Shown here: positions 1 to 12,386 of the stretch, piece after piece
Layout of the letters: each line of letters starts with the position of its first letter
How positions within the stretch are numbered: the first letter of the stretch is position 1
From: Escherichia coli
GTDB taxonomy: Bacteria > Pseudomonadota > Gammaproteobacteria > Enterobacterales > Enterobacteriaceae
Length of the DNA: 64,000 nucleotides
Reading direction: 5' to 3' (one strand)
NCBI RefSeq assembly: GCF_017348835.2
Contig: NZ_CP071375.1
Translations under genes and position numbers: made by a program
The notes under the pieces: generated by a model
Told to the model about the DNA's origin: nothing
Database searches by the model: none
The model's input: only the letters and a program-made list of their open reading frames with translations

Positions 1-952
1 TCAGTGTCAAAACCCGGTTTAAAGTAGCGCTACTCATTGGCGCATCGGAATCGTACCGCGAAGGAAGGATAAAATCAGAGCTACCGGCAAAGGTTTTGAG
101 AGCAATCATAATATCCATTGCCTGTCTGGAAAGAAAAACCAAATGTGGATTACGTCGTTTCATCCTTTCCTTTGGTATCGTCCATAATGCCTCACTAAAA
201 TTGATCTCGTTCCAGGTTGCGTTAGTAAGCTCACTTTTACGTACCATCGTTAACAGCAAAAGTTTAACCGCTGCTCTGATTGATGGCGTCGTTCCTACCC
301 GTTCCATGTACCGATACATCAGACCAATTTCAATTGGCGTCAATGCCCTGTCTCGAGGCTCAAATTTCGCTATGCTTGCAGGCCGTACCAGATCAGCAGG
401 ATTCTCCACCTTCTGACCGCGCTCAATAGCCCAGCGATAGACTTGCAATACAATCTCTCTGGCGTGTACAGCTGTCGCTGGTGCCCCTCTCTCGACAATG
501 TTATCGGTTAATGCGCGTAAGTCTTCATGTGTAATCTCACTAAGTTTCTGCTGGGCAAATTTTGACTTCAACTCCCTTTGATATACCGAACGCCGCATAT
601 CACGCGTCGATTCAGCCATTTGATAACCGCGTAACCATTTCTCAGTCCACGCACCAAAAGTCTCCGCATCTTTAATACGCGCTTTATCTCTGGCTTTTTC
701 CCTCGCAGGCGATATTCCACTGGCAACCATTTTTTTGGCTTCATTGAGCCGTTCACGCGCTTCTGCAAGCGTGATCCCTCCAACACCATAGCGGCCAAAA
801 ATAACAGTCTCCTGTCTTCCGTTTATTGAATAGTTATAACGAAATGAAATAGTTCCAGCCGGAGTGACCGCAACATACAGACCATCACGGTCATTAACTT
901 TATAGAGTTTCTCCTTCGGCTTAAGGTGACGCAGCCTGGTGTCAGTCAACAT
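1..952 (-). CDS. P4-type tyrosine integrase, 5' part only (start codon at 950-952; 3' end lies beyond base 1)
   Basis: Hand translation of the minus strand from 952 gives an open frame with no stop to base 1: MLTDTRLRHLKPKEKLYKVNDRDGLYVAVTPAGTISFRYNY..., matching the N-terminal arm-binding region of P4-like integrases. Not in the ORF track because the frame runs off the window. Confidence 0.75.
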   Translation of the reverse strand, partial: MLTDTRLRHLKPKEKLYKVNDRDGLYVAVTPAGTISFRYNYSINGRQETVIFGRYGVGGITLAEARERLNEAKKMVASGISPAREKARDKARIKDAETFGAWTEKWLRGYQMAESTRDMRRSVYQRELKSKFAQQKLSEITHEDLRALTDNIVERGAPATAVHAREIVLQVYRWAIERGQKVENPADLVRPASIAKFEPRDRALTPIEIGLMYRYMERVGTTPSIRAAVKLLLLTMVRKSELTNATWNEINFSEALWTIPKERMKRRNPHLVFLSRQAMDIMIALKTFAGSSDFILPSRYDSDAPMSSATLNRVLTL

Positions 953-1175
953 GGTTTATTGTTTTCCTTTATCAAAAATACCATGTTGTAAAAAATTCAG
1001 AAAAGTTGTTTAACTATCTGTTTTTAATTGAGTTATAAAAAAAATACCATAACTCAACCGAAATTTATCACATGGTACTTTTTCAAACCTGAATTCGAAA
1101 CCAGAGAGTACCATCAAAAATTCCATTGAAAAAACCGTGCTTCCCGTTGCTAACAGCTGCCAGAAAGTGCCAGAC

Positions 1176-1208
1176 ACAAAAACAAAAAAGCCCGCAGTTA
1201 CGCGGGCT
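1176..1208 (-). terminator. Rho-independent terminator of guaA
   Basis: GC hairpin agcccgcagttacgcgggct followed on the minus strand by a U-run, about 50 nt after the guaA stop. Confidence 0.7.
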
Positions 1209-1256
1209 TAGAGGTACTTTACTGCTTTTACGTGCAGGCTGTTGCCAGACGTTAAA

Positions 1257-2834
1257 TCATTCCCACTCAATGGTAGCCGGCGGCTTGCCGCTGATGTCAT
1301 ACACCACGCGGGAAATACCGTTCACTTCATTGATAATGCGGTTGGAAACGCGACCGAGGAAATCGTACGGCAGATGCGCCCAGTGTGCGGTCATAAAGTC
1401 GATGGTTTCGACAGCACGCAGAGAGACAACCCAGTCATACTTACGACCATCGCCCATTACGCCAACGGAACGTACTGGCAGGAAGACGGTGAACGCCTGG
1501 CTGACTTTGTCGTACAGGTCCGCTTTACGCAGTTCTTCAATGAAGATGGCGTCAGCACGGCGCAGCAGGTCACAATACTCTTTCTTCACTTCACCCAGAA
1601 CACGAACGCCGAGGCCTGGTCCCGGGAACGGGTGACGGTACAGCATGTCGTACGGTAGACCCAGCTCCAGACCAATCTTACGCACTTCGTCTTTGAACAG
1701 CTCTTTCAGCGGTTCAACCAGGCCCATCTTCATCTCTTTCGGCAGGCCGCCCACGTTGTGGTGAGATTTGATGACGTGTGCTTTACCGGTTGCAGACGCC
1801 GCAGATTCGATAACGTCAGGGTAGATGGTGCCCTGTGCCAGCCACTTCACGTCTTCCAGTTTCAGCGCTTCTTCATCGAATACTTCAACGAAAACGCGAC
1901 CGATGATTTTACGTTTTGCTTCCGGATCGTTTTCGCCAGCCAGCGCTGACAGGAAGCGATCTTCTGCCGGAACGTGAACAATGTTCAGACCAAAGTGATC
2001 GCCAAACATATCCAGAACCTGCTCTGCTTCGTTGAGACGCAGCAGGCCGTTGTCGACGAATACGCAAGTCAGGTTTTTACCGATAGCGCGGTGCAGCAGC
2101 ATTGCGGTTACGGAGGAATCCACACCACCAGAGAGGCCGAGGATGACTTTATCGTCGCCTACCTGCTCGCGGATGCGAGCTACAGCATCGTCGATAATTT
2201 TCGCTGGCGTCCACAGGGCTTCACACTGGCAGATATCACGCACAAAACGCTCCAGCATGCGCATACCCTGGCGGGTGTGAGTCACTTCCGGGTGGAACTG
2301 TACGCCATAGAAGCGTTTTTCTTCGTTAGCCATAATGGCAAACGGGCAGCTTTCGGTGCTGGCTACGGTGACGAAGTCGGACGGGATAGCGGTAACTTTA
2401 TCGCCGTGGCTCATCCAGACATCGAGCAGCGGTTTACCGTCTGCGGTCAGCGCATCTTCGATACCGCGAACCAGTGCGCTGTCGTTTACGACTTCAACCT
2501 GCGCGTAGCCAAATTCACGTTCGTTAGAGGCTTCAACGTGACCGCCCAACTGCATTGCCATGGTCTGCATGCCATAGCAAACGCCGAATACCGGTACGCC
2601 TGCTTCAAAGACATACTGCGGCGCACGCGGGCTGTTTTCTTCAGTAGTACTTTCCGGGCCGCCGGAAAGAATAATGCCGCTTGGATTGAAGTCACGAATT
2701 TGTGCTTCTGTCACATCCCACGCCCACAGTTCGCAGTAAACACCCAGCTCACGCACGCGGCGCGCAACCAGTTGAGTGTACTGAGAACCGAAGTCCAGAA
2801 TGAGGATGCGATGCTTATGAATGTTTTCCGTCAT
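1257..2834 (-). CDS. guaA: GMP synthase (glutamine-hydrolysing)
   Basis: 525-aa [25 protein letters not shown]... to ...PPATIEWE; glutamine amidotransferase plus ATP-pyrophosphatase layout. Confidence 0.97.
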
Positions 2835-2902: not shown

Positions 2903-4369
2903 TCAGGAGCCCAGACGGTAGTTCGGGGACTCTTTAGTAATGGTCACGTCGTGAACGTGGCTTTCCTGAATGCCCGCACCGCTGATACGTACAAACTCCG
3001 CTTTAGTACGCAGTTCGTCGATAGTACCACAGCCGGTCAAACCCATACAGGAGCGCAGGCCGCCCATCTGCTGGTGAATGATCTCTTTCAGGCGACCTTT
3101 ATAAGCTACGCGACCTTCGATACCTTCCGGCACCAGTTTGTCGGCAGCGTTATCGCTCTGGAAATAACGGTCAGAGGAACCTTTGGACATCGCGCCCAGG
3201 GAACCCATACCACGGTAAGATTTGTAAGAACGGCCCTGGTAGAGTTCGATTTCACCCGGAGATTCTTCAGTACCCGCCAGCATGGAACCTACCATCACCG
3301 CGCTTGCGCCAGCGGCGATAGCTTTGGCGATGTCGCCGGAGAAGCGAATACCACCATCTGCGATAACCGGAATACCGGTGCCTTCCAAGGCTTCAACTGC
3401 GTCAGCAACGGCAGTGATCTGCGGAACACCTACGCCAGTAACGATACGAGTCGTACAGATAGAACCAGGGCCGATACCGACTTTAACCGCGCTGCAACCA
3501 GCTTCTGCCAGAGCGCGTGCACCTGCAGCTGTTGCCACGTTGCCGCCGATGATTTGCAGATCCGGATATTTAGCACGGGTTTCACGGATACGCTGCAAAA
3601 CGCCTTCTGAGTGACCGTGGGAGGAGTCGATCAGCAGAACGTCAACGCCAGCGGCAACCAGCGCGTCAACACGCTCTTCGTTACCCGCACCTGCGCCAAC
3701 TGCAGCACCAACACGCAGACGGCCTTGCTCGTCTTTACAGGCGTTCGGTTTACGTTCCGCTTTCTGGAAATCTTTCACGGTGATCATGCCGATCAGGTGG
3801 AATTCGTCATCAACCACCAGCGCTTTTTCAACGCGTTTTTCGTGCATTTTTGCCAGCACCACTTCACGGGCTTCACCTTCACGCACGGTGACCAGACGCT
3901 CTTTCGGCGTCATGTAAACGCTAACCGGCTGGTTCAGGTCGGTAACAAAACGCACGTCACGACCGGTGATAATACCCACCAGTTCGTTTTCTTCGGTAAC
4001 GACCGGATAGCCCGCAAAACCGTTACGCTCGGTCAGTTCTTTCACTTCGCGCAGCGTCGTGGTTGGCAGAACAGTCTGCGGATCAGTCACCACACCAGAT
4101 TCGTGTTTTTTCACACGGCGAACTTCTTCTGCCTGGCGTTCAATGGACATGTTTTTGTGGATAAAGCCGATACCGCCTTCCTGAGCCAGAGCAATAGCCA
4201 GGCGCGCTTCCGTTACGGTATCCATTGCTGCGGAAAGCATAGGGATATTCAGACGAATAGTTTTCGTCAGCTGGGTGCTGAGGTCAGCAGTATTCGGCAG
4301 AACGGTAGAATGAGCAGGAACGAGGAGAACGTCGTCAAACGTCAGAGCTTCTTTAGCGATACGTAGCAT
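2903..4369 (-). CDS. guaB: IMP dehydrogenase
   Basis: ORF track frame 2903..4438; start trimmed to [16 protein letters not shown] (488 aa). CBS domains and catalytic [11 protein letters not shown] loop present. Confidence 0.95.
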
Positions 4370-5975: not shown

Positions 5976-8900
5976 TCACTGGAAACAAGTAACCAGACCA
6001 GGTTTATTGGCTAACGTGATACAACAATCCTCTGTGCCAGTGCTCTCGTCCATCCCACACCGTTGAGAGGACAAGTAAGGGAAACTTGGCGAAGCTGGCC
6101 ATCCCAGCGAATTAAACACAGTATACAATGTCTCTAACTCATTGTATGTCGGTGCATTTTCTATATTTCCACACTGCTTCGAGATATCCCATTTGCTGGC
6201 ATCAGTAATATGCGCAGAAGCCCAGTTTTCGTAGTTAATAATCGGTGAGGATACGGGATTGGCCCCGGACGGTAATTCAGTTGTCAGTATCGGTCGATGT
6301 AATGTTTTTCCATTCACCACTGCCGTGTCTGCCATATGCCCCCAGAAGTGAGCAGAAGATACATTTGGGCTGGTCAATACGGTGAAAATAGTGTCCATCA
6401 TTGCAGTCACTGTTGGGTATTTATCCAGCGTTACCGTCAGCGGCATTTTATAACCCGGCGTATTGTCCTGACGAACAGTAAAGTTTGCCGTGCCGTCTGC
6501 CCCCGTCACGCCACTGATCTCGTTCCCACTAACCGCCAATAGGGTAGCCGCCCCCGATGATGGCTGGATGGTAATATCATCCATAGCCGCCACATCGCCA
6601 TATAGCGTCGCCCCACTATTACGCGGAGAGGCATCACCACGTCGCAGAGTAAACGCCACATTTGGCACAGGTTTCCCGGCGCTGTCTTTCACCGTCACGG
6701 TGACTGGCATTGCCTCGCCCTTCTTCACTTTCGCCGCCTGAGCGGTGGAGTCAAATGCCGTTGACGTCAGGGTGACGGTAGAAACCGTTGAGTGAGGGTG
6801 CACCAGGCACGCCTGGAAGGCGCGGCTTTTAGATACAGTCACAAGTTGACCTGTGTTGAAGTCAAATGATTCACAAGAATTCGCGCCCGCAGGACAATCT
6901 GCATTTGTCCACCACACATAGCTATTCTGTTTCACCGGCCAGCCAATCTCATTGACGATAGAGCCATTCGGATAGCGGTTGTATAAAGATTGAAGCTCAT
7001 CCAATGATGGATATCGTGCGCTTTCACAAGGGATAAGCTCCGGCAAATATCGCTGGGTAATATATGGCGCAGGCCAGCTTTCATTATTTATATTCACTTT
7101 AGTGAGCGAATAACCGCCACCGCTGGTTGCCCCCATTTCGGCCCACAGTTTCATCCGCTCAAACTGCGTTCCGTCTGCTGAGCTTACCGTTTCTGGCATA
7201 TGTCCCCAGAAGTTGGCTTTTGGCGTATCCGGGCTTGTTACTACGGTATACATCAGGTCGAGATCTGACTTTACCCCTGTTTCACGTGCAAGCGTCGCCG
7301 TAAACGGTGTTACCAGTCCCCAGGTATTATCCTGCGTAGCGGTTAACGTGATGATGCCATTACCGTCCGTAACCCCGTTCCAACTGGCGTTATCATCTGC
7401 AAATTTGTAATTGGCTTGCGCAACCGGCGTCAGGAACTGTAGCAGCAGATCATCTGCTGTCGAGCTTGTGAAATCACTCGGCGTGCGCACTTGTGCTGTC
7501 GCACGCGACAACCTGACGCTTTCATAGGCGGCAGGTCTGCCCGCATCATCCGTGACCTTGATAGTTAACGGTATTGATACGCCCTTCTTCGCCCATGCAG
7601 TCGGACGGTTGTCGTTGATGCCTGTTTTGTCCGCATTCAGCAACGTAGACGTCAACTCAATCGTCGTTGCCTCAGTGTGCGGGTCAACCAGGCAGAGCAT
7701 TAAATTGCCCGCCGTCGATGTTGTACTTTCGTTGCGGATAGCACCGCTCATCAGATCAAGCACCTGGTTATACCATGTTGAACTTGAAACAGTTTGGTCG
7801 TACGCCCACCAGTAATTACCTGCGTTAAGAGGCAGCCCCAAATCAGTTTCCAGCGCACCATTTGGATGGTCGTTGTAAAGCCCCATTAGCTCACTACTGA
7901 AGGGTTGATAAGGCGAAGTGCAGCCTGAGATCGAACTGTTCGCTTTGTTGGTTGCATCTGGTCGCGCCCAGTCTTCATTGTTGATATTAAAGGACGCAGT
8001 CCCGGACAACTCGGCCTTCAACTGTGGTCGCCTGAACGCGACGCCCGCGCTGCTGGTAAAGGTTTCCGGCATATGGCCCCAATAGTTAGCCTTCGGCGTA
8101 TCCGGGCTGGTGATCACTGTGAAAATCGCACTTAAAGATTGTGAAGCAATCGAACCATCGTCCAGTTTCGCCAACAACGGAATACGAACGCCATATCCTT
8201 TATGGAACTGATATACCGTCAACGTCGCCGTTCCGTCAGGCCCGGTAACACCATAAAAATCATCGCCCTCATTAATGATTGGCGTTTGATGATTGGATGA
8301 ATCCGTGATGTAAATTAATTTCGACTGGTAATCTGAACTTACTACATTCTGACGGCTAAGCGTCGCACCATGTTCCAGCAAGAAGGGTACATTACCCAGC
8401 AGATTTCCCTGCGCGTCGCGCGTTGTGACCTTAATGGTGATGAAATCATGATCAACTTCATAATTGGTTTTTGCTTTAACCCCCTGATTACCATCATAAA
8501 CCTGCGCTTGTTCAGAGGTTAACTCAATTGTGGCGACCTTCGGGTTAGCCGTTGTCTGGCAGGTTAAATACCCCCCTTTTGACTCCAGTACACTGCTGGT
8601 GCCATTACTCAGTTGCACACCAAGGTAATTACGATTACTTACGCTGGCACCATCGGCGGTGCTGGTGTCATAGACTTTTAATACTGGCCAGCCGTCTACA
8701 GCATGACCGCCCCAGCTTGTCGATAACGTGGTTAATGCATCTTTGGTCGGGATATTATCTGCGCCACAACCGTTATTTTTCGCATTCTTACTTGCCTGCG
8801 CTTCAGTAAACAGCGCCCAAATTTCGTTATCCTCTTCCGGGCTTTTACGTCCATTGCCGGGAGAACCACTCAGTTCTGAAAACAGGATCGGTCGCTTAAA

Positions 8901-11900
8901 CGTCAATCCTCCCGCTGTGAGTGTTTCTGGCATATGCCCCCACATTTTTGCCTTGTTAGTGTCAGGGCTGGTGACAACGGTAAAAATAGTGTCTAACGAT
9001 GCGTTTTTTGTTGGATCGGAATAGAGCGCAGCGGTAATTGCCGTTTTCGTGCCGTGAGTGTCCGGGCGGGTGATGGTGAGAATTTTGCTACCGTCACTCC
9101 CCGTTAACCCAGCGTATGCACTGGCAGTATCGTTAAGCGACATTTCATCTGACATTCCGGCATCCACCACGACCGGTGAAACGATCCCGTCACCGCTTCC
9201 TGCAATATGCTTTTCATTGCTACGGGTGTAACCATCGCCACGCTTCAGGGTAAAGGGCATTCCCGGCATCGGGTTACCCGCCGTATCTTTCACCGTGACT
9301 TTTACCTGTAGCGTTTCACCCTTTTTCAGTTTCGCTGCATTAAGCGTGCTATTCCACTGTGCCTGATCGACCACTTCCAGCGTAATGGTGCTGGCGGGTG
9401 GGTTAGCGTCCTTCAGGCAGGAGATATAAATTTCCGAGGAACTTGTTTGCACGTTTCCGTTATTCAGCCAAACCGCTGCAAAGTGCGGGACTTTATCGGT
9501 AGGCGTGCTACTCCAGTAAGGCTGGCGCTGAGTCGGCCAACCATGCTCAGTTTGAATCGCGTTATTACTGTTGGCGCGATAGAGCGCATCAAGCTGTGAC
9601 TGGCGTGGCACTTTATTGGCCTCACAACCGCCCACCGCGCTATTTTCGATCTCGGACTGATCGACGCGTAACCAGGTTTCATTATTTTCATCAAAGGGAC
9701 GCCCGGAACCGCTTACCTCCACCGCCAGTTTGGGGCGATTAAATGTAATAGAATCCACAGTTATCGTGTCATCCATGTGCCCCCACATTCTCGCTCCCAT
9801 CACATCCGGGCTGGTGGGAACCGTAAAGATTACATAGTAGTTAATGGTATTCGGCAGAACAGAATTAGGAGGCGTGACAACAAGTCGCGTTCTTAAGCCA
9901 ACGCCTTGTGGCTGCTCAACAACAACGGTTGCCTGCCCCTGTGCGTCTGTAATACCGGAGTAAACCATTGAGGATTGTGAGGTACCGTACTGCGTCCCAT
10001 TCAGGGTTATTGCGCCGTTACTGGGATCGGTAAACCCGGTTGCGCTTTCTTCACGGTCAAGACTGATATCTTTGGTAATAGTAAAAGCCGTGAACGGCAC
10101 CCGCTCGCCATTCAGAGCATTAACTGTGCGCACCGTCATGGTGATTTGTTCACCGACTTTCGCCCGTGCCAGGCTGCCCGAGGTAGTATCACGATCGGTT
10201 GTCACTTCAACCTTCGCCACCATCTCATTACCAGAGCACGAGAGATAGTTTTGTTTAAAACCGCTATAACTGTCGACGTTCCCTGTTCCGAGGTTTACCG
10301 ATGAATGCGTTGTCTGCTCCGCGGCAGTTAAATAGTCCTTTACTGCGGTTGGCCAGCCATACTCAGTCCCGATGATATTGCCAGGGTAAGCCGAATACAG
10401 ACTTTCCAGTGAGATCTCACGCGGTATATGCCCCGTGCCGCATTCTGCCTGCATACTGGTATTTTGATCGAATAACGCCCAGTCTTCGTTATTTTCCCGT
10501 ACTGTGCCTATTTCATGCGTGGTTTCAGCCGCCAGCAGCGGTCGTTTATATAAACTGCCAGCATCAATAATGCCGTGCATGTGGCCCCACATCCGCGCAT
10601 ATTCGCTGTCCGGACTGGTCACCACCGTAAAGACCACATCTTTGGCATCTTCAGCAGTGAAATTACTGCGCATTTTCGCCGTAATATGCGTTTTAACGCC
10701 TGCGCCGTCAGGCTGCGTCAGCAGCAGAGTTGCCTGACCATTGACGTCGGTCATTCCCTCATAATTATGATCATCTACCTTTTGCAGGTTGGTGCCGCCG
10801 GAAATTTGTACCGGATGCGCTTCCCACGCCGGATCGGTTTGATTTTTGCGGTTAACGCCGTCATCGAGATGCAGCGAGAAGTAGTAATAAGCCAGCGGCT
10901 GATTGTTATTTTTTTTATCGGTAATGGTCAGGCGTATCGTAGTGCTGTCACCGACCTCTGCCTTCGCGGCATTTATACTTTCATCAAAGTTACTGGGCGT
11001 GAGCACCAACTCTGGCTCAACATCGGGTTCTGCTTTATCCACACAGCTCACGATATACTTTGTACTGTCTGGTTTTTGCGCTTCGCTGCGGTTAGACACA
11101 TCAGCCGCGTGGTGCTGCCCGGTACTTCCTGCCAGAGATGACCAGTAATAATCACCCTGCATCGGCCAACCGGCGGTCTCCTGAATAGAGTTAGGGATCA
11201 CCGTAGCCAGCGCGCCAAACTGGCGCATGCCAGGCAAAATATCGCAGTGGTTATCTGCGCCACTCCAGGTGAAGGTCGACCAGGTTTCACCGTGATCGTT
11301 CACACTGCCATCTTCGTTATCAACTTCCGCCGCCAATTTCGGACGACTAAAGGTGTAATTCATGGCCGTCAGGGTTTCCGCCATATGGCCCCACATATTG
11401 GCCTGCGGGGCATCCGGGCTGGTGAGTACAGTAAATATCACCGCCGTTTCACTGGTTTGCGAGATGCCAGAAAGGCTGACCACCAGCGGCGTTTTGACAC
11501 CTGGACCATTGGGCTGCGTCACCGTGACGGTAGCTGCGCCATCAGCATTAGTCGTGCCCCGATACTCCGTTGCTGTGGTGGTGAGTTCAGTGGTATCAAG
11601 ATTGACAGGTGAGGTGTTATTCACCACTCCCTGGCGGTTTTCAGCATCTTTTCGTTTGATAACAAAAGGGATATTGCTCGCAATATTACCTTCACAATCT
11701 TGGGTGGTTACGGTTAAGGTGATTGAACCATCGACAGTAGTCTTTGCCGCTTGTAACGTATCGTCATAGCCACTGGCGCTAATTGTCACCAGGTCGCCCT
11801 GGGCGGGAGCAATATTCAGCGTCACTTTATGTTCAGCCAACGGCACCGTCCCCTGATTAGGCACACCAGTTAACGTGTAGAGGTAGAGTAAAGGTAGCGC

Positions 11901-12386
11901 TTCCTGCTCATTGATTCGCGGCCACGCCACCAAAGAACGCCCTGCCAGATTCTGCGCGCAGAAAGAGCGGTCCGGGCGCGGTTGTGGGCTGAGCGGCGTA
12001 TCTGGCGTCGCGGCATCCGTCCACACAAGAGATACAGCAGGAGGCGTCTGGTTTTGCCAGCCTAGCACGGGGGGATTAGAAAAAAGATCGCCTTCAGGAT
12101 CGTGAGGGTTAACCAGAATCATTCTCGCCGCTGTGTCATCAACACTGAATGCGCTGGGTTTTACAGATGCCTGAATGTCGTAGGTTTTGCTCGGATCAAG
12201 CTGAACGCTTCCCTGATAAACGGGTACGCTGGCGCTCTCTGCCCCGGGCACTGTGCCATTGATTGCGTCGGTCGAGATGCCAGTTTGTTGCCACTGGCCA
12301 CCTTTTAATACTGCCCCAACCTGAAAAGAGAGGAAGAGCAGAAAAACCGCCGTTATCGCTTTTATCAGTTTCAAAGTCCCGTCCAT
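5976..12386 (-). CDS. ratA: Giant repetitive secreted surface protein with seven Ig-like modules (RatA-like, CS54-island type)
   Basis: 2136-aa ORF with N-terminal signal peptide; an approx. 290-aa module recurs seven times, each ending in a T-V-(V/L)-T-S-P-D ... (M/F/Y)-W-G-H-M signature. Position next to sinI/sinH between xseA and yfgJ matches the Salmonella CS54 island. Confidence 0.7.

What the first reader, a model, noticed from the sequence alone, without database searches (positions are those of the whole stretch)
953..1130. Repeated (A)TACCAT motifs and an inverted repeat in the int-guaA spacer: candidate att and arm sites
The AT-rich spacer contains aaaaaataccatg (958-970), aaaaaaaataccata (1035-1049) and the inverted pair atggtact / agtaccat (1073-1080 and 1106-1113). 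Repeats of this kind next to an integrase start are typical of arm-type binding sites and the attachment core.
Basis: inference. Interest (0 to 1): 0.3.

Follow-up and report, generated by a model that had tools for sequence, protein, structure and literature searches.

The report
Integrase arm-binding repeats beside guaA
The repeated TACCAT words lie in the integrase-side arm of a known mobile island (GIsul2/PIME family) inserted at the end of guaA and are conserved at both island ends across proteobacteria, so they are most likely integrase arm-binding sites, while the real crossover site lies about 140 bp away at the guaA stop codon.

Summary
TACCAT lies at 979-984, 1045-1050 and 1109-1114 (+), and ATGGTA at 1072-1077. 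The spacer 954-1253 is island DNA: K-12 lacks it, and only 306 of 5426 E. coli genomes have anything similar. The island is a PIME1/GIsul2-family mobilizable element at the guaA 3' end. Its integrase is 87% identical to the GIsul2 Int and has an Arm-DNA-bind_3 domain. The att core is not in the finding. It is the direct repeat AAATCATTCCCACTC at 1254-1268 (published core GAGTGGGA), which overlaps the guaA stop codon. In 73 distinct arms from alpha-, beta- and gammaproteobacteria (median 59% identity to the window), the blocks RAT(A/G)CCATG are the best-conserved elements and sit at fixed positions. A tandem pair of the same motif is the only conserved block besides the core in 11 integrase-distal arms. 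Best reading: arm-type Int sites, not described in the papers I could search. Two of them overlap a weak candidate int promoter, as in KplE1/P4. This is an ordinary kind of feature in a known family. Binding is inferred, not shown. In the strain identical to the window, the island has lost its other end.

The parts
1..953 (-). 5' part of int (codons 1-317 of 396; the gene runs off the window's left end). It encodes a heterobivalent tyrosine recombinase of the GIsul2/PIME family.
   Evidence: The ORF and translation were read from the identical locus L001. Pfam finds Arm-DNA-bind_3 at residues 2-88, Phage_int_M and Phage_integrase. It is 87% identical to the GIsul2-type Int. PDB hits are 3ju0/3jtz for the N-domain and lambda Int for the C-domain.
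977..985 (+). Site A, AATACCATG, a candidate arm-type Int site. It lies 25-32 nt upstream of the int ATG, just before the RBS.
   Evidence: TACCATG is present in 100% of 73 unique arms and is invariant in 7 E. coli lineages.
1043..1051 (+). Site B, AATACCATA, a candidate arm-type Int site.
   Evidence: TACCAT is present in 98.6% of 73 arms. The block reaches conservation decile 9.
1071..1079 (-). Site C, read as CATGGTACT on the + strand. It is the same motif in the opposite orientation.
   Evidence: TACCAT is present in 98.6% of 73 arms, and T[AG]CCAT in 100%. It is invariant.
1088..1096 (-). Remnant of site D. The family has CATGGCATC here; the window's lineage has CCTGAATTC, so the site is lost.
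   Evidence: 89% of 73 arms have T[AG]CCAT at this position. The window and its closest relatives do not.
1107..1115 (+). Site E, AGTACCATC. It is the motif copy that overlaps the candidate int -10 element.
   Evidence: 84% of arms have NRCCAN here, but only 23% have TACCAT. The -10 of the sigma70-like match falls here in 49 of 73 arms.
1118..1126 (+). Site F, AATTCCATT (family: AATGCCATG). It is a degenerate copy 12 bp from site E.
   Evidence: 92% of arms have NRCCAN and 60% have T[AG]CCAT. The 12-bp spacing is the same as in the distal-arm tandem pair.
1105..1132 (-). Candidate int promoter, weak in this lineage: -35 TTTTCA (1132..1127), 16-nt spacer, TGgTACTCT (1113..1105).
   Evidence: A positionally conserved sigma70-like match (for example TTGAGC-16-TATTAT) occurs in 49 of 73 arms. 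The window itself scores only 7 of 12, and the strict scan found nothing. This is a consensus match only.
1158..1174 (+). Two direct TGCCAGA boxes (1158-1164 and 1168-1174, 10-bp spacing). They are conserved, and I suggest them as AlpA (RDF) sites, a guess from their tandem 10-bp spacing.
   Evidence: Conservation deciles are 7-9 across 73 arms. GCCAGA occurs 3 times in the arm. The function is inference only.
1188..1209 (-). Island-borne intrinsic terminator that ends guaA transcription before int.
   Evidence: The terminator scan finds it. It is conserved in all lineages. K-12 has a different terminator. The sub-threshold Rfam Trp_leader hit is this hairpin.
1243..1249 (+). Third TGCCAGA box, 4 nt from the att direct repeat.
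   Evidence: It is conserved as TGCC(A/G)GACG.
1254..1271 (.). att core region. The direct repeat is AAATCATTCCCACTC, with TCCCACTC (reverse complement GAGTGGGA) at 1261-1268. It covers the last four guaA codons, the stop codon and 3 nt beyond.
   Evidence: It is duplicated at both ends of the intact island L003 (family D7). Homology with the empty K-12 site begins here. GAGTGGGA is the published GIsul2 core (PMC9376610).
1257..2834 (-). guaA, the integration target. The ORF is kept intact.

Best explanation
The interval 954-1253 is the integrase-proximal arm of the attachment site of a PIME1/GIsul2-family integrative mobilizable element inserted at the 3' end of guaA. The copies of RAT(A/G)CCATG are arm-type sites. 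In the window these are A 977-985, B 1043-1051, C 1071-1079 (inverted) and E 1107-1115. F 1118-1126 is a degenerate copy, and D 1088-1096 is lost in this lineage. The N-terminal arm-binding domain of Int (residues 2-88) would bind them. Its C-terminal domains would bind the core at 1254-1271. DNA bending would let one Int bridge an arm site and a core site, forming the intasome with the tandem pair in the distal arm, as with lambda Int. The terminator at 1188-1209 blocks read-through from guaA, so int must be transcribed from inside this arm. The best candidate promoter lies over sites E and F, so Int binding there would also repress int, as in KplE1 and P4. Shown here: the island boundary, the core, the Int domain architecture, and motif conservation, position and presence in both arms. 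Inferred: that Int is the binder, the bridging, the promoter and the autoregulation.
For: 1. The spacer is island DNA. The K-12 yfgI-guaA site lacks it and homology starts at about 1232/1254. Only 306 of 5426 E. coli genomes have any match to int plus spacer.
2. The intact islands L003 and L005-L008 are flanked by the repeat ATCA(T/C)TCCCACTC. This is the published core.
3. Int has an Arm-DNA-bind_3 domain (E = 4.6e-19), a central domain and a catalytic domain. Its N-domain matches PDB 3ju0/3jtz and its C-domain matches lambda Int.
4. In 7 E. coli lineages the arm DNA has diverged (blastn identity 69-75% to the window over int plus arm), and in the arm alignment the motif blocks are invariant. 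In 73 unique arms from 80 genomes of three proteobacterial classes (median 59% identity to the window), sites A, B and C are TACCAT in 99-100% and site D is T[AG]CCAT in 89%. These blocks are conservation peaks.
5. The core lies about 315-320 nt from the int start in 76 of 80 loci.
6. In 11 distal arms (mean column identity 49%), the only conserved block beyond the core is a tandem pair, NRCCAYG then ATACCAT, with 12-bp spacing, 76 and 88 nt from the start of the core repeat. The CR2-sul2 unit carries its own copy.
7. In five complete islands, 29 of 40 TACCAT copies lie in the arms, which make up 2.9% of the DNA.
8. No conserved ORF covers the arm.
9. A plasmid with only int plus attL integrates into attB (PMC9376610).
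Against: There are no binding data. The invariance of both motif and Int allows no covariation test. AlpA is also conserved (55-78% identity) and cannot be excluded as the binder. ACCAT fits the loose core half-site pattern AYNATY, and the E. coli attB half-site is TACCATT, so the core-binding domains could be the readers. Sites E and F are much less motif-like across the family and may be conserved as promoter elements instead. No IHF consensus is present in the arm. In the strain identical to the window the distal end is deleted, so the sites may no longer function there.
Confidence: 0.68

Rival explanations
1. The motifs are transcriptional operator or promoter elements for int. A regulator would bind them (AlpA, the LuxR-family protein or an IncP helper factor), or RNA polymerase would, and they would have no role in assembling the recombination complex.
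For: The int promoter must lie in this arm because of the terminator at 1188-1209. A sigma70-like match has its -10 over site E in 49 of 73 arms. Excision of PIMEs requires alpA, luxR and an IncP helper (preprint 10.64898/2026.01.12.698999).
Against: In the integrated state the same motif sits as a conserved tandem pair in the distal arm, 12-20 kb from int, and also on the CR2-sul2 unit, which has no int. GIsul2-type islands lack luxR yet keep the motif. Sites A-D lie downstream of the candidate promoter.
Confidence: 0.14
2. The repeats are extra core-type-like half-sites. The core-binding and catalytic domains of Int would read them, not the N-terminal arm domain.
For: The half-sites flanking the 7-bp overlap read ATCATT, AC(G/C)AT(T/C) and A(C/T)AAT(C/T). 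ACCATG fits this pattern, and the E. coli attB half-site is TACCATT, 1-2 nt from the core.
Against: The attB half-site varies among hosts (mostly GACGAT), whereas the arm motif is invariant over 8-9 nt including the flanking AT and G. Int carries a dedicated arm-binding domain that would otherwise have no target. No arm copy has an inverted partner at 7-bp spacing.
Confidence: 0.1
3. The inverted copies form a hairpin or nested helices in the int leader RNA (sites C and D pairing with B and A) that control int translation. Alternatively, the repeats are chance words in AT-rich DNA.
For: The window's - strand 1060-1125 folds at -14.9 kcal/mol, z = -2.05. On the mRNA, sites C/D are complementary to B/A. 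The two observed deviations, G in site D and C in site B of L010, are wobble-compatible. 24% of shuffles give some hexamer at 4 copies.
Against: Complementarity stops at the motif edges. Flank positions pair at 17-65%, which is close to chance, and equally for non-partner combinations, so there is no covariation. The distal-arm copies are not in the int transcript. Chance cannot explain invariance across 73 diverged arms.
Confidence: 0.04

Closest known systems
Arm-type sites of phage lambda Int (P1, P2, P'1-P'3) and the lambda intasome
   Same: Short repeated motifs occur in both arms of attP, in both orientations, at fixed distances from a core. They lie next to a recombinase that has a separate N-terminal arm-binding domain and lambda-like catalytic domains. 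A tandem pair lies in one arm.
   Different: The motif differs (RATACCATG, against lambda's C/AAGTCACTAT, the latter from my own knowledge). There are six positions in the int-proximal arm and two in the distal arm. No IHF consensus was found. The target is the 3' end of a protein gene. Binding is untested.
KplE1 IntS/attL and phage P4 int, where the attL arm overlaps the int promoter and Int (with its RDF) represses int (PMC2951348)
   Same: int is transcribed away from the core, from a promoter that must lie inside the att arm. Arm-type sites overlap the -10 region. There is a separate RDF gene (alpA here). The Int is P4-like with the same N-domain family.
   Different: The promoter here is only a weak consensus match (7 of 12 in the window). 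There are no expression data. The arm is longer (about 300 bp), and an island-borne terminator sits between the core and the sites.
GIsul2 att sites (attL, attLR, attR; core GAGTGGGA) and PIME elements at guaA (PMC9376610; bioRxiv 10.64898/2026.01.12.698999)
   Same: It is the same integrase family (87% identity), the same target and the same core. The backbone in the identical strain is int, luxR, alpA, repA, traJ, trbJ and trbL, which is the PIME1 layout.
   Different: Those papers define only the 19-bp core sites. The words 'arm' and 'binding' do not occur in the 2022 paper, and 'arm' does not occur in the preprint. The conserved flanking motif described here adds to that picture.

Membership tests
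Arm-type binding sites of a heterobivalent tyrosine recombinase | The adjacent recombinase has a dedicated N-terminal arm-binding domain as well as core-binding and catalytic domains. | tested here: met
   Pfam finds Arm-DNA-bind_3 at residues 2-88 (E = 4.6e-19), Phage_int_M and Phage_integrase. PDB hits are 3ju0/3jtz and lambda Int.
Arm-type binding sites of a heterobivalent tyrosine recombinase | The sites lie in element DNA that flanks the core, not in host DNA. | tested here: met
   The spacer is absent from K-12. It lies between int and the terminal direct repeat. Only 306 of 5426 genomes have any match to it.
Arm-type binding sites of a heterobivalent tyrosine recombinase | The same short motif is repeated in both arms of attP. 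| tested here: met
   There are up to six positions in the proximal arm. A tandem pair occurs in 11 distal arms. The distal arm itself is not in the window.
Arm-type binding sites of a heterobivalent tyrosine recombinase | The motif is conserved in sequence and position among diverged relatives while the surrounding arm diverges. | tested here: met
   Across 73 unique arms with median 59% identity, the motif blocks reach conservation decile 9.
Arm-type binding sites of a heterobivalent tyrosine recombinase | The motif is distinct from the core-type half-sites. | tested here: inconclusive
   ACCAT fits the loose half-site pattern AYNATY, and the E. coli attB half-site is TACCATT. In most hosts, however, it is GACGAT.
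Arm-type binding sites of a heterobivalent tyrosine recombinase | The Int N-domain binds the sites directly, and the sites are required for recombination. | not testable with these tools
   This needs EMSA or footprinting and site mutagenesis.
att core (crossover) site | The sequence is duplicated at both island ends and present once in the empty site. | tested here: not met
   Nothing in 953-1130 is present in K-12 or repeated at the far junction. The repeat with these properties is at 1254-1268.
GIsul2/PIME family of guaA-specific integrative mobilizable elements | An integrase of the GIsul2 family, inserted at the guaA 3' end with core GAGTGGGA. | tested here: met
   Int is 87% identical to WP_000954590, the Int found next to sul2/repAC remnants. 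The core is at 1261-1268.
GIsul2/PIME family of guaA-specific integrative mobilizable elements | The backbone carries alpA, a replicase, trbJ and trbL, plus divergent luxR for subfamily 1. | tested here: met
   These genes are annotated in L001, which is 100% identical to the window over 1-1400, and in L003/L004. AlpA has a Pfam hit. These genes lie outside the window.
GIsul2/PIME family of guaA-specific integrative mobilizable elements | Excision and mobilization depend on an IncP helper plasmid. | not testable with these tools
   This was reported for two PIME1 elements in the preprint and cannot be tested here. PE164 lacks the second att site.

The most novel reading that the evidence does not exclude
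RAT(A/G)CCATG is the so far undescribed arm-type recognition sequence of the GIsul2/PIME integrase family. The tandem pair that sits 60-90 bp from the core next to sul2 would then be what lets the integrase move CR2-sul2 resistance units in trans. The E/F pair over the int promoter would give KplE1-like negative autoregulation.
Probability: 0.55. Interest if true: 0.4.

Novelty: new member of a known kind. Interest (0 to 1): 0.3.

Why it matters
GIsul2/PIME elements occur in about 100 proteobacterial species. They carry sul2, arsenic resistance and many anti-phage systems. Only their 19-bp core has been defined so far. A conserved arm motif would define the minimal functional att sites. It would make integrase binding and autoregulation directly testable. 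It would also give a sequence signature for intact versus decayed islands and for the CR2-sul2 units that depend on the same integrase. For this window the practical result is modest: the feature is an ordinary part of a known element, and the island here is probably immobile.

Tried and rejected
- A strict sigma70 scan of 900-1300 found no promoter. Only a relaxed, family-wide scan gave a positionally conserved weak candidate.
- The IHF consensus WATCAANNNNTTR has no match in the arm.
- Rfam gave only sub-threshold hits. Trp_leader scored 30.6 against a gathering score of 41, and that hit is the terminator hairpin.
- The 55-aa ORF at 1010-1177 (-) is not conserved. 17 of 73 arms have no ORF of 40 aa or more, including the 99%-identical-Int relative L011.
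- A hairpin or leader-RNA model finds no complementarity or covariation beyond the motif itself.
- The 14-nt repeat AATACCATGTTGTA inside L003 (family D13) is at chance level for a 17.5-kb island (my estimate, about 0.5 expected pairs).
- Read on the - strand, the TGCCAGA boxes resemble a sigma54 promoter (TGGCAC...TGGCA), but the spacing is one base short and the -12 element is TGGC, not TTGC. I rejected this by inspection.
- A covariation test between the Int N-domain and the motif is not possible. The best 80 relatives kept by the scan, of 383 found, are all 85-99% identical and the motif is invariant.
- The paper on the Brucella IncP island (PMC1273839) is not in the held library. Harmer et al. 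2017 was not found by my searches, so I cannot exclude that arm repeats were mentioned there.

Full report
**Observation.** The window starts inside an integrase gene on the - strand, with its ATG at 953..951. An AT-rich spacer follows, and then guaA (- strand, 1257-2834), guaB and xseA. TACCAT occurs at 979-984, 1045-1050 and 1109-1114 on the + strand. Its complement ATGGTA occurs at 1072-1077. Four of the window's 25 copies fall within 136 bp, where about 0.05 would be expected at the window-wide density. None of 5000 dinucleotide shuffles of the arm reached four copies. However, 24% of shuffles had some other hexamer at four copies. Within one sequence, then, the repeat is only suggestive.

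**What the spacer is.** Aligned with the empty yfgI-guaA site of K-12, the window shares nothing to the left of about 1232, and clear homology starts at 1254. Only 306 of 5426 complete E. coli genomes have any similarity to int plus spacer.

In strain WP2-S18-ESBL-08 (L003) a 17.6-kb island lies between yfgI and guaA. It is flanked by the direct repeat AAATCATTCCCACTC(G/A)AT (family D7). Four further diverged islands (L005-L008) are flanked by ATCA(T/C)TCCCACTC. In the window this repeat is at 1254-1268. It covers the last four guaA codons, the stop codon and 3 nt beyond. It contains TCCCACTC, the reverse complement of GAGTGGGA, which is the core shown experimentally for GIsul2 (PMC9376610). 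The att core is therefore outside the finding, and 954-1253 is the integrase-proximal arm.

**The element.** Int has an Arm-DNA-bind_3 domain (residues 2-88), a central domain and a catalytic domain. It is 87% identical to the GIsul2-type Int, which is the protein found next to sul2 and repA/repC remnants on plasmids. Its N-domain matches solved CP4-like integrase N-domains, and its C-terminal part matches lambda Int.

In PE164, which is 100% identical to the window over 1-1400, the neighbours are a hypothetical gene, luxR, alpA, repA, traJ, trbJ and trbL. This is the PIME subfamily 1 layout of a 2026 preprint, which showed helper-dependent (IncP plasmid pB10) excision that requires int, alpA and luxR. 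In PE164 an IS3 element replaces the island's distal part together with yfgH and yfgI, and only one core copy remains. That island probably cannot excise precisely.

**Comparative test of the motifs, proximal arm.** In seven E. coli lineages with diverged arm DNA, the motif blocks are invariant islands in a variable background. A scan of 100,044 species genomes returned 80 loci from alpha-, beta- and gammaproteobacteria, with Int 85-99% identical to the window's. In 76 of these the core lies about 315-320 nt from the int start. Among 73 unique arms (median 59% identity to the window), conservation peaks at six positions:

| Site | Window coordinates | Orientation | Conservation across 73 arms |
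|---|---|---|---|
| A | 977-985 | + | TACCATG in 100% |
| B | 1043-1051 | + | TACCAT in 98.6% |
| C | 1071-1079 | inverted | TACCAT in 98.6% |
| D | 1088-1096 | inverted | T[AG]CCAT in 89%; degenerate in the window's lineage |
| E | 1107-1115 | + | NRCCAN in 84% |
| F | 1118-1126 | + | NRCCAN in 92% |

The consensus is RAT(A/G)CCATG.

**Comparative test of the motifs, distal arm.** In 11 integrase-distal arms (mean column identity 49%), the only conserved block beyond the core is a tandem pair of the same motif. The two copies are 12 bp apart and lie 76 and 88 nt from the start of the core repeat. Sites E and F have the same 12-bp spacing. In five complete islands, 29 of 40 TACCAT copies lie in the arms, which make up 2.9% of the DNA. 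The CR2-sul2 unit of GIsul2 carries its own distal-type arm with the pair. No conserved ORF covers the arm.

**Mechanism.** The best reading is that these are arm-type sites for the Int N-domain. The catalytic part of Int would bind the core. Bridging of arm and core sites, helped by bending proteins and by the AlpA directionality factor, would assemble the recombination complex as in lambda. This mechanism comes from established knowledge of heterobivalent integrases and is an inference here. A plasmid carrying only int plus attL integrates into attB (PMC9376610), which fits a functional proximal arm.

An island-borne terminator (1188-1209) ends guaA transcription, so int must be transcribed from within the arm. 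A positionally conserved sigma70-like match, for example TTGAGC-16-TATTAT, has its -10 over site E in 49 of 73 arms. The window has only TTTTCA-16-TGgTACTCT, which scores 7 of 12. Int binding at sites E and F could then repress int, as shown for KplE1 IntS and P4 (PMC2951348). This step is speculative.

**Rivals.**
- *Regulator operator only.* This is weakened by the conserved copies in the distal arm and on the int-less CR2-sul2 unit, and by islands that lack luxR yet keep the motif.
- *Core-type-like half-sites.* ACCAT fits the loose half-site pattern AYNATY, and the E. coli attB half-site is TACCATT. But the attB half-site varies among hosts, while the arm motif is invariant over 8-9 nt.
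- *Leader-RNA helices.* Complementarity ends at the motif edges, with no covariation.
- *AlpA as the binder.* This cannot be excluded. I suggest the three TGCCAGA boxes (1158-1164, 1168-1174, 1243-1249), which were seen only in the proximal arm, as the AlpA sites, because the first two form a tandem pair 10 bp apart. This is a guess.

**Novelty.** The island family, its target and its core are known. The two key papers do not mention arm sites, and my full-text searches found none. Harmer et al. 2017 was not found by these searches. The result is a new instance of a well-known kind of feature. It is well supported by conservation but untested biochemically.

Noticed in passing
window 1158-1164, 1168-1174, 1243-1249: Three direct copies of TGCCAGA lie in the integrase-proximal arm. 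Two are tandem with 10-bp spacing, and one is 4 nt from the att direct repeat. They are conserved across 73 arms and were not seen in the distal arms examined. They may be AlpA (RDF) sites.
   Followed up: partly
window 1188-1209 (- strand): The island brings its own intrinsic terminator for guaA, conserved in all lineages. The native K-12 terminator stays behind at the distal junction next to yfgI (L003 about 3650-3680).
   Followed up: partly
window 1269-1275; loci L011-L090: In E. coli the attB half-site next to the overlap reads TACCATT (guaA codons Thr-Ile), the same word as the arm motif. In most other hosts it is GACGAT(T/C). Whether this is a coincidence is unknown.
   Followed up: partly
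L001 10602-12046 (strain PE164, identical to the window over 1-1400): An IS3-family element replaces the distal part of the island together with yfgH and yfgI. Only one att core remains, so this copy is probably immobile.
   Followed up: partly
L003 13581-13602, 14469-14490, 18856-18877, 19692-19713: There are four palindromes containing TTTAGC(G/A)GCTAAA. From my own knowledge this matches the IncP-1 KorB operator consensus TTTAGCSGCTAAA. That would fit the reported dependence of PIMEs on IncP helper plasmids.
   Followed up: no
L003 14698-14781: Four tandem 21-bp repeats (CGGGCCGCTGTAGCACGCTAC-like) lie near the repA-side genes. They probably correspond to the iteron oriV described for PIME1 in the preprint.
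   Followed up: no
L091 3983-7780 (E. coli WP5-S18-ESBL-07 resistance region): This is an attP-like junction. Its order is truncated int, proximal arm, core, distal-type arm, sul2, glmM', ISCR2, a second core (attLR), a second distal arm, then resG. The CR2-sul2 unit thus carries a core plus its own distal-type arm with the tandem TACCATG pair.
   Followed up: partly
loci L011-L090: Int is 85-99% identical in amino acids across alpha-, beta- and gammaproteobacteria, while the adjacent arm DNA is only about 59% identical. This is unusually strong conservation of the recombinase across hosts.
   Followed up: no
window 5976-12386 and onward (compare L001 25976-35878): A 2136-aa adhesion-domain protein lies between xseA and the yfgJ homologue (zinc-ribbon gene), with SinI and SinH genes annotated next to it in L001. 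K-12 has nothing between xseA and yfgJ. This is a second variable region beside the guaBA-xseA block.
   Followed up: no
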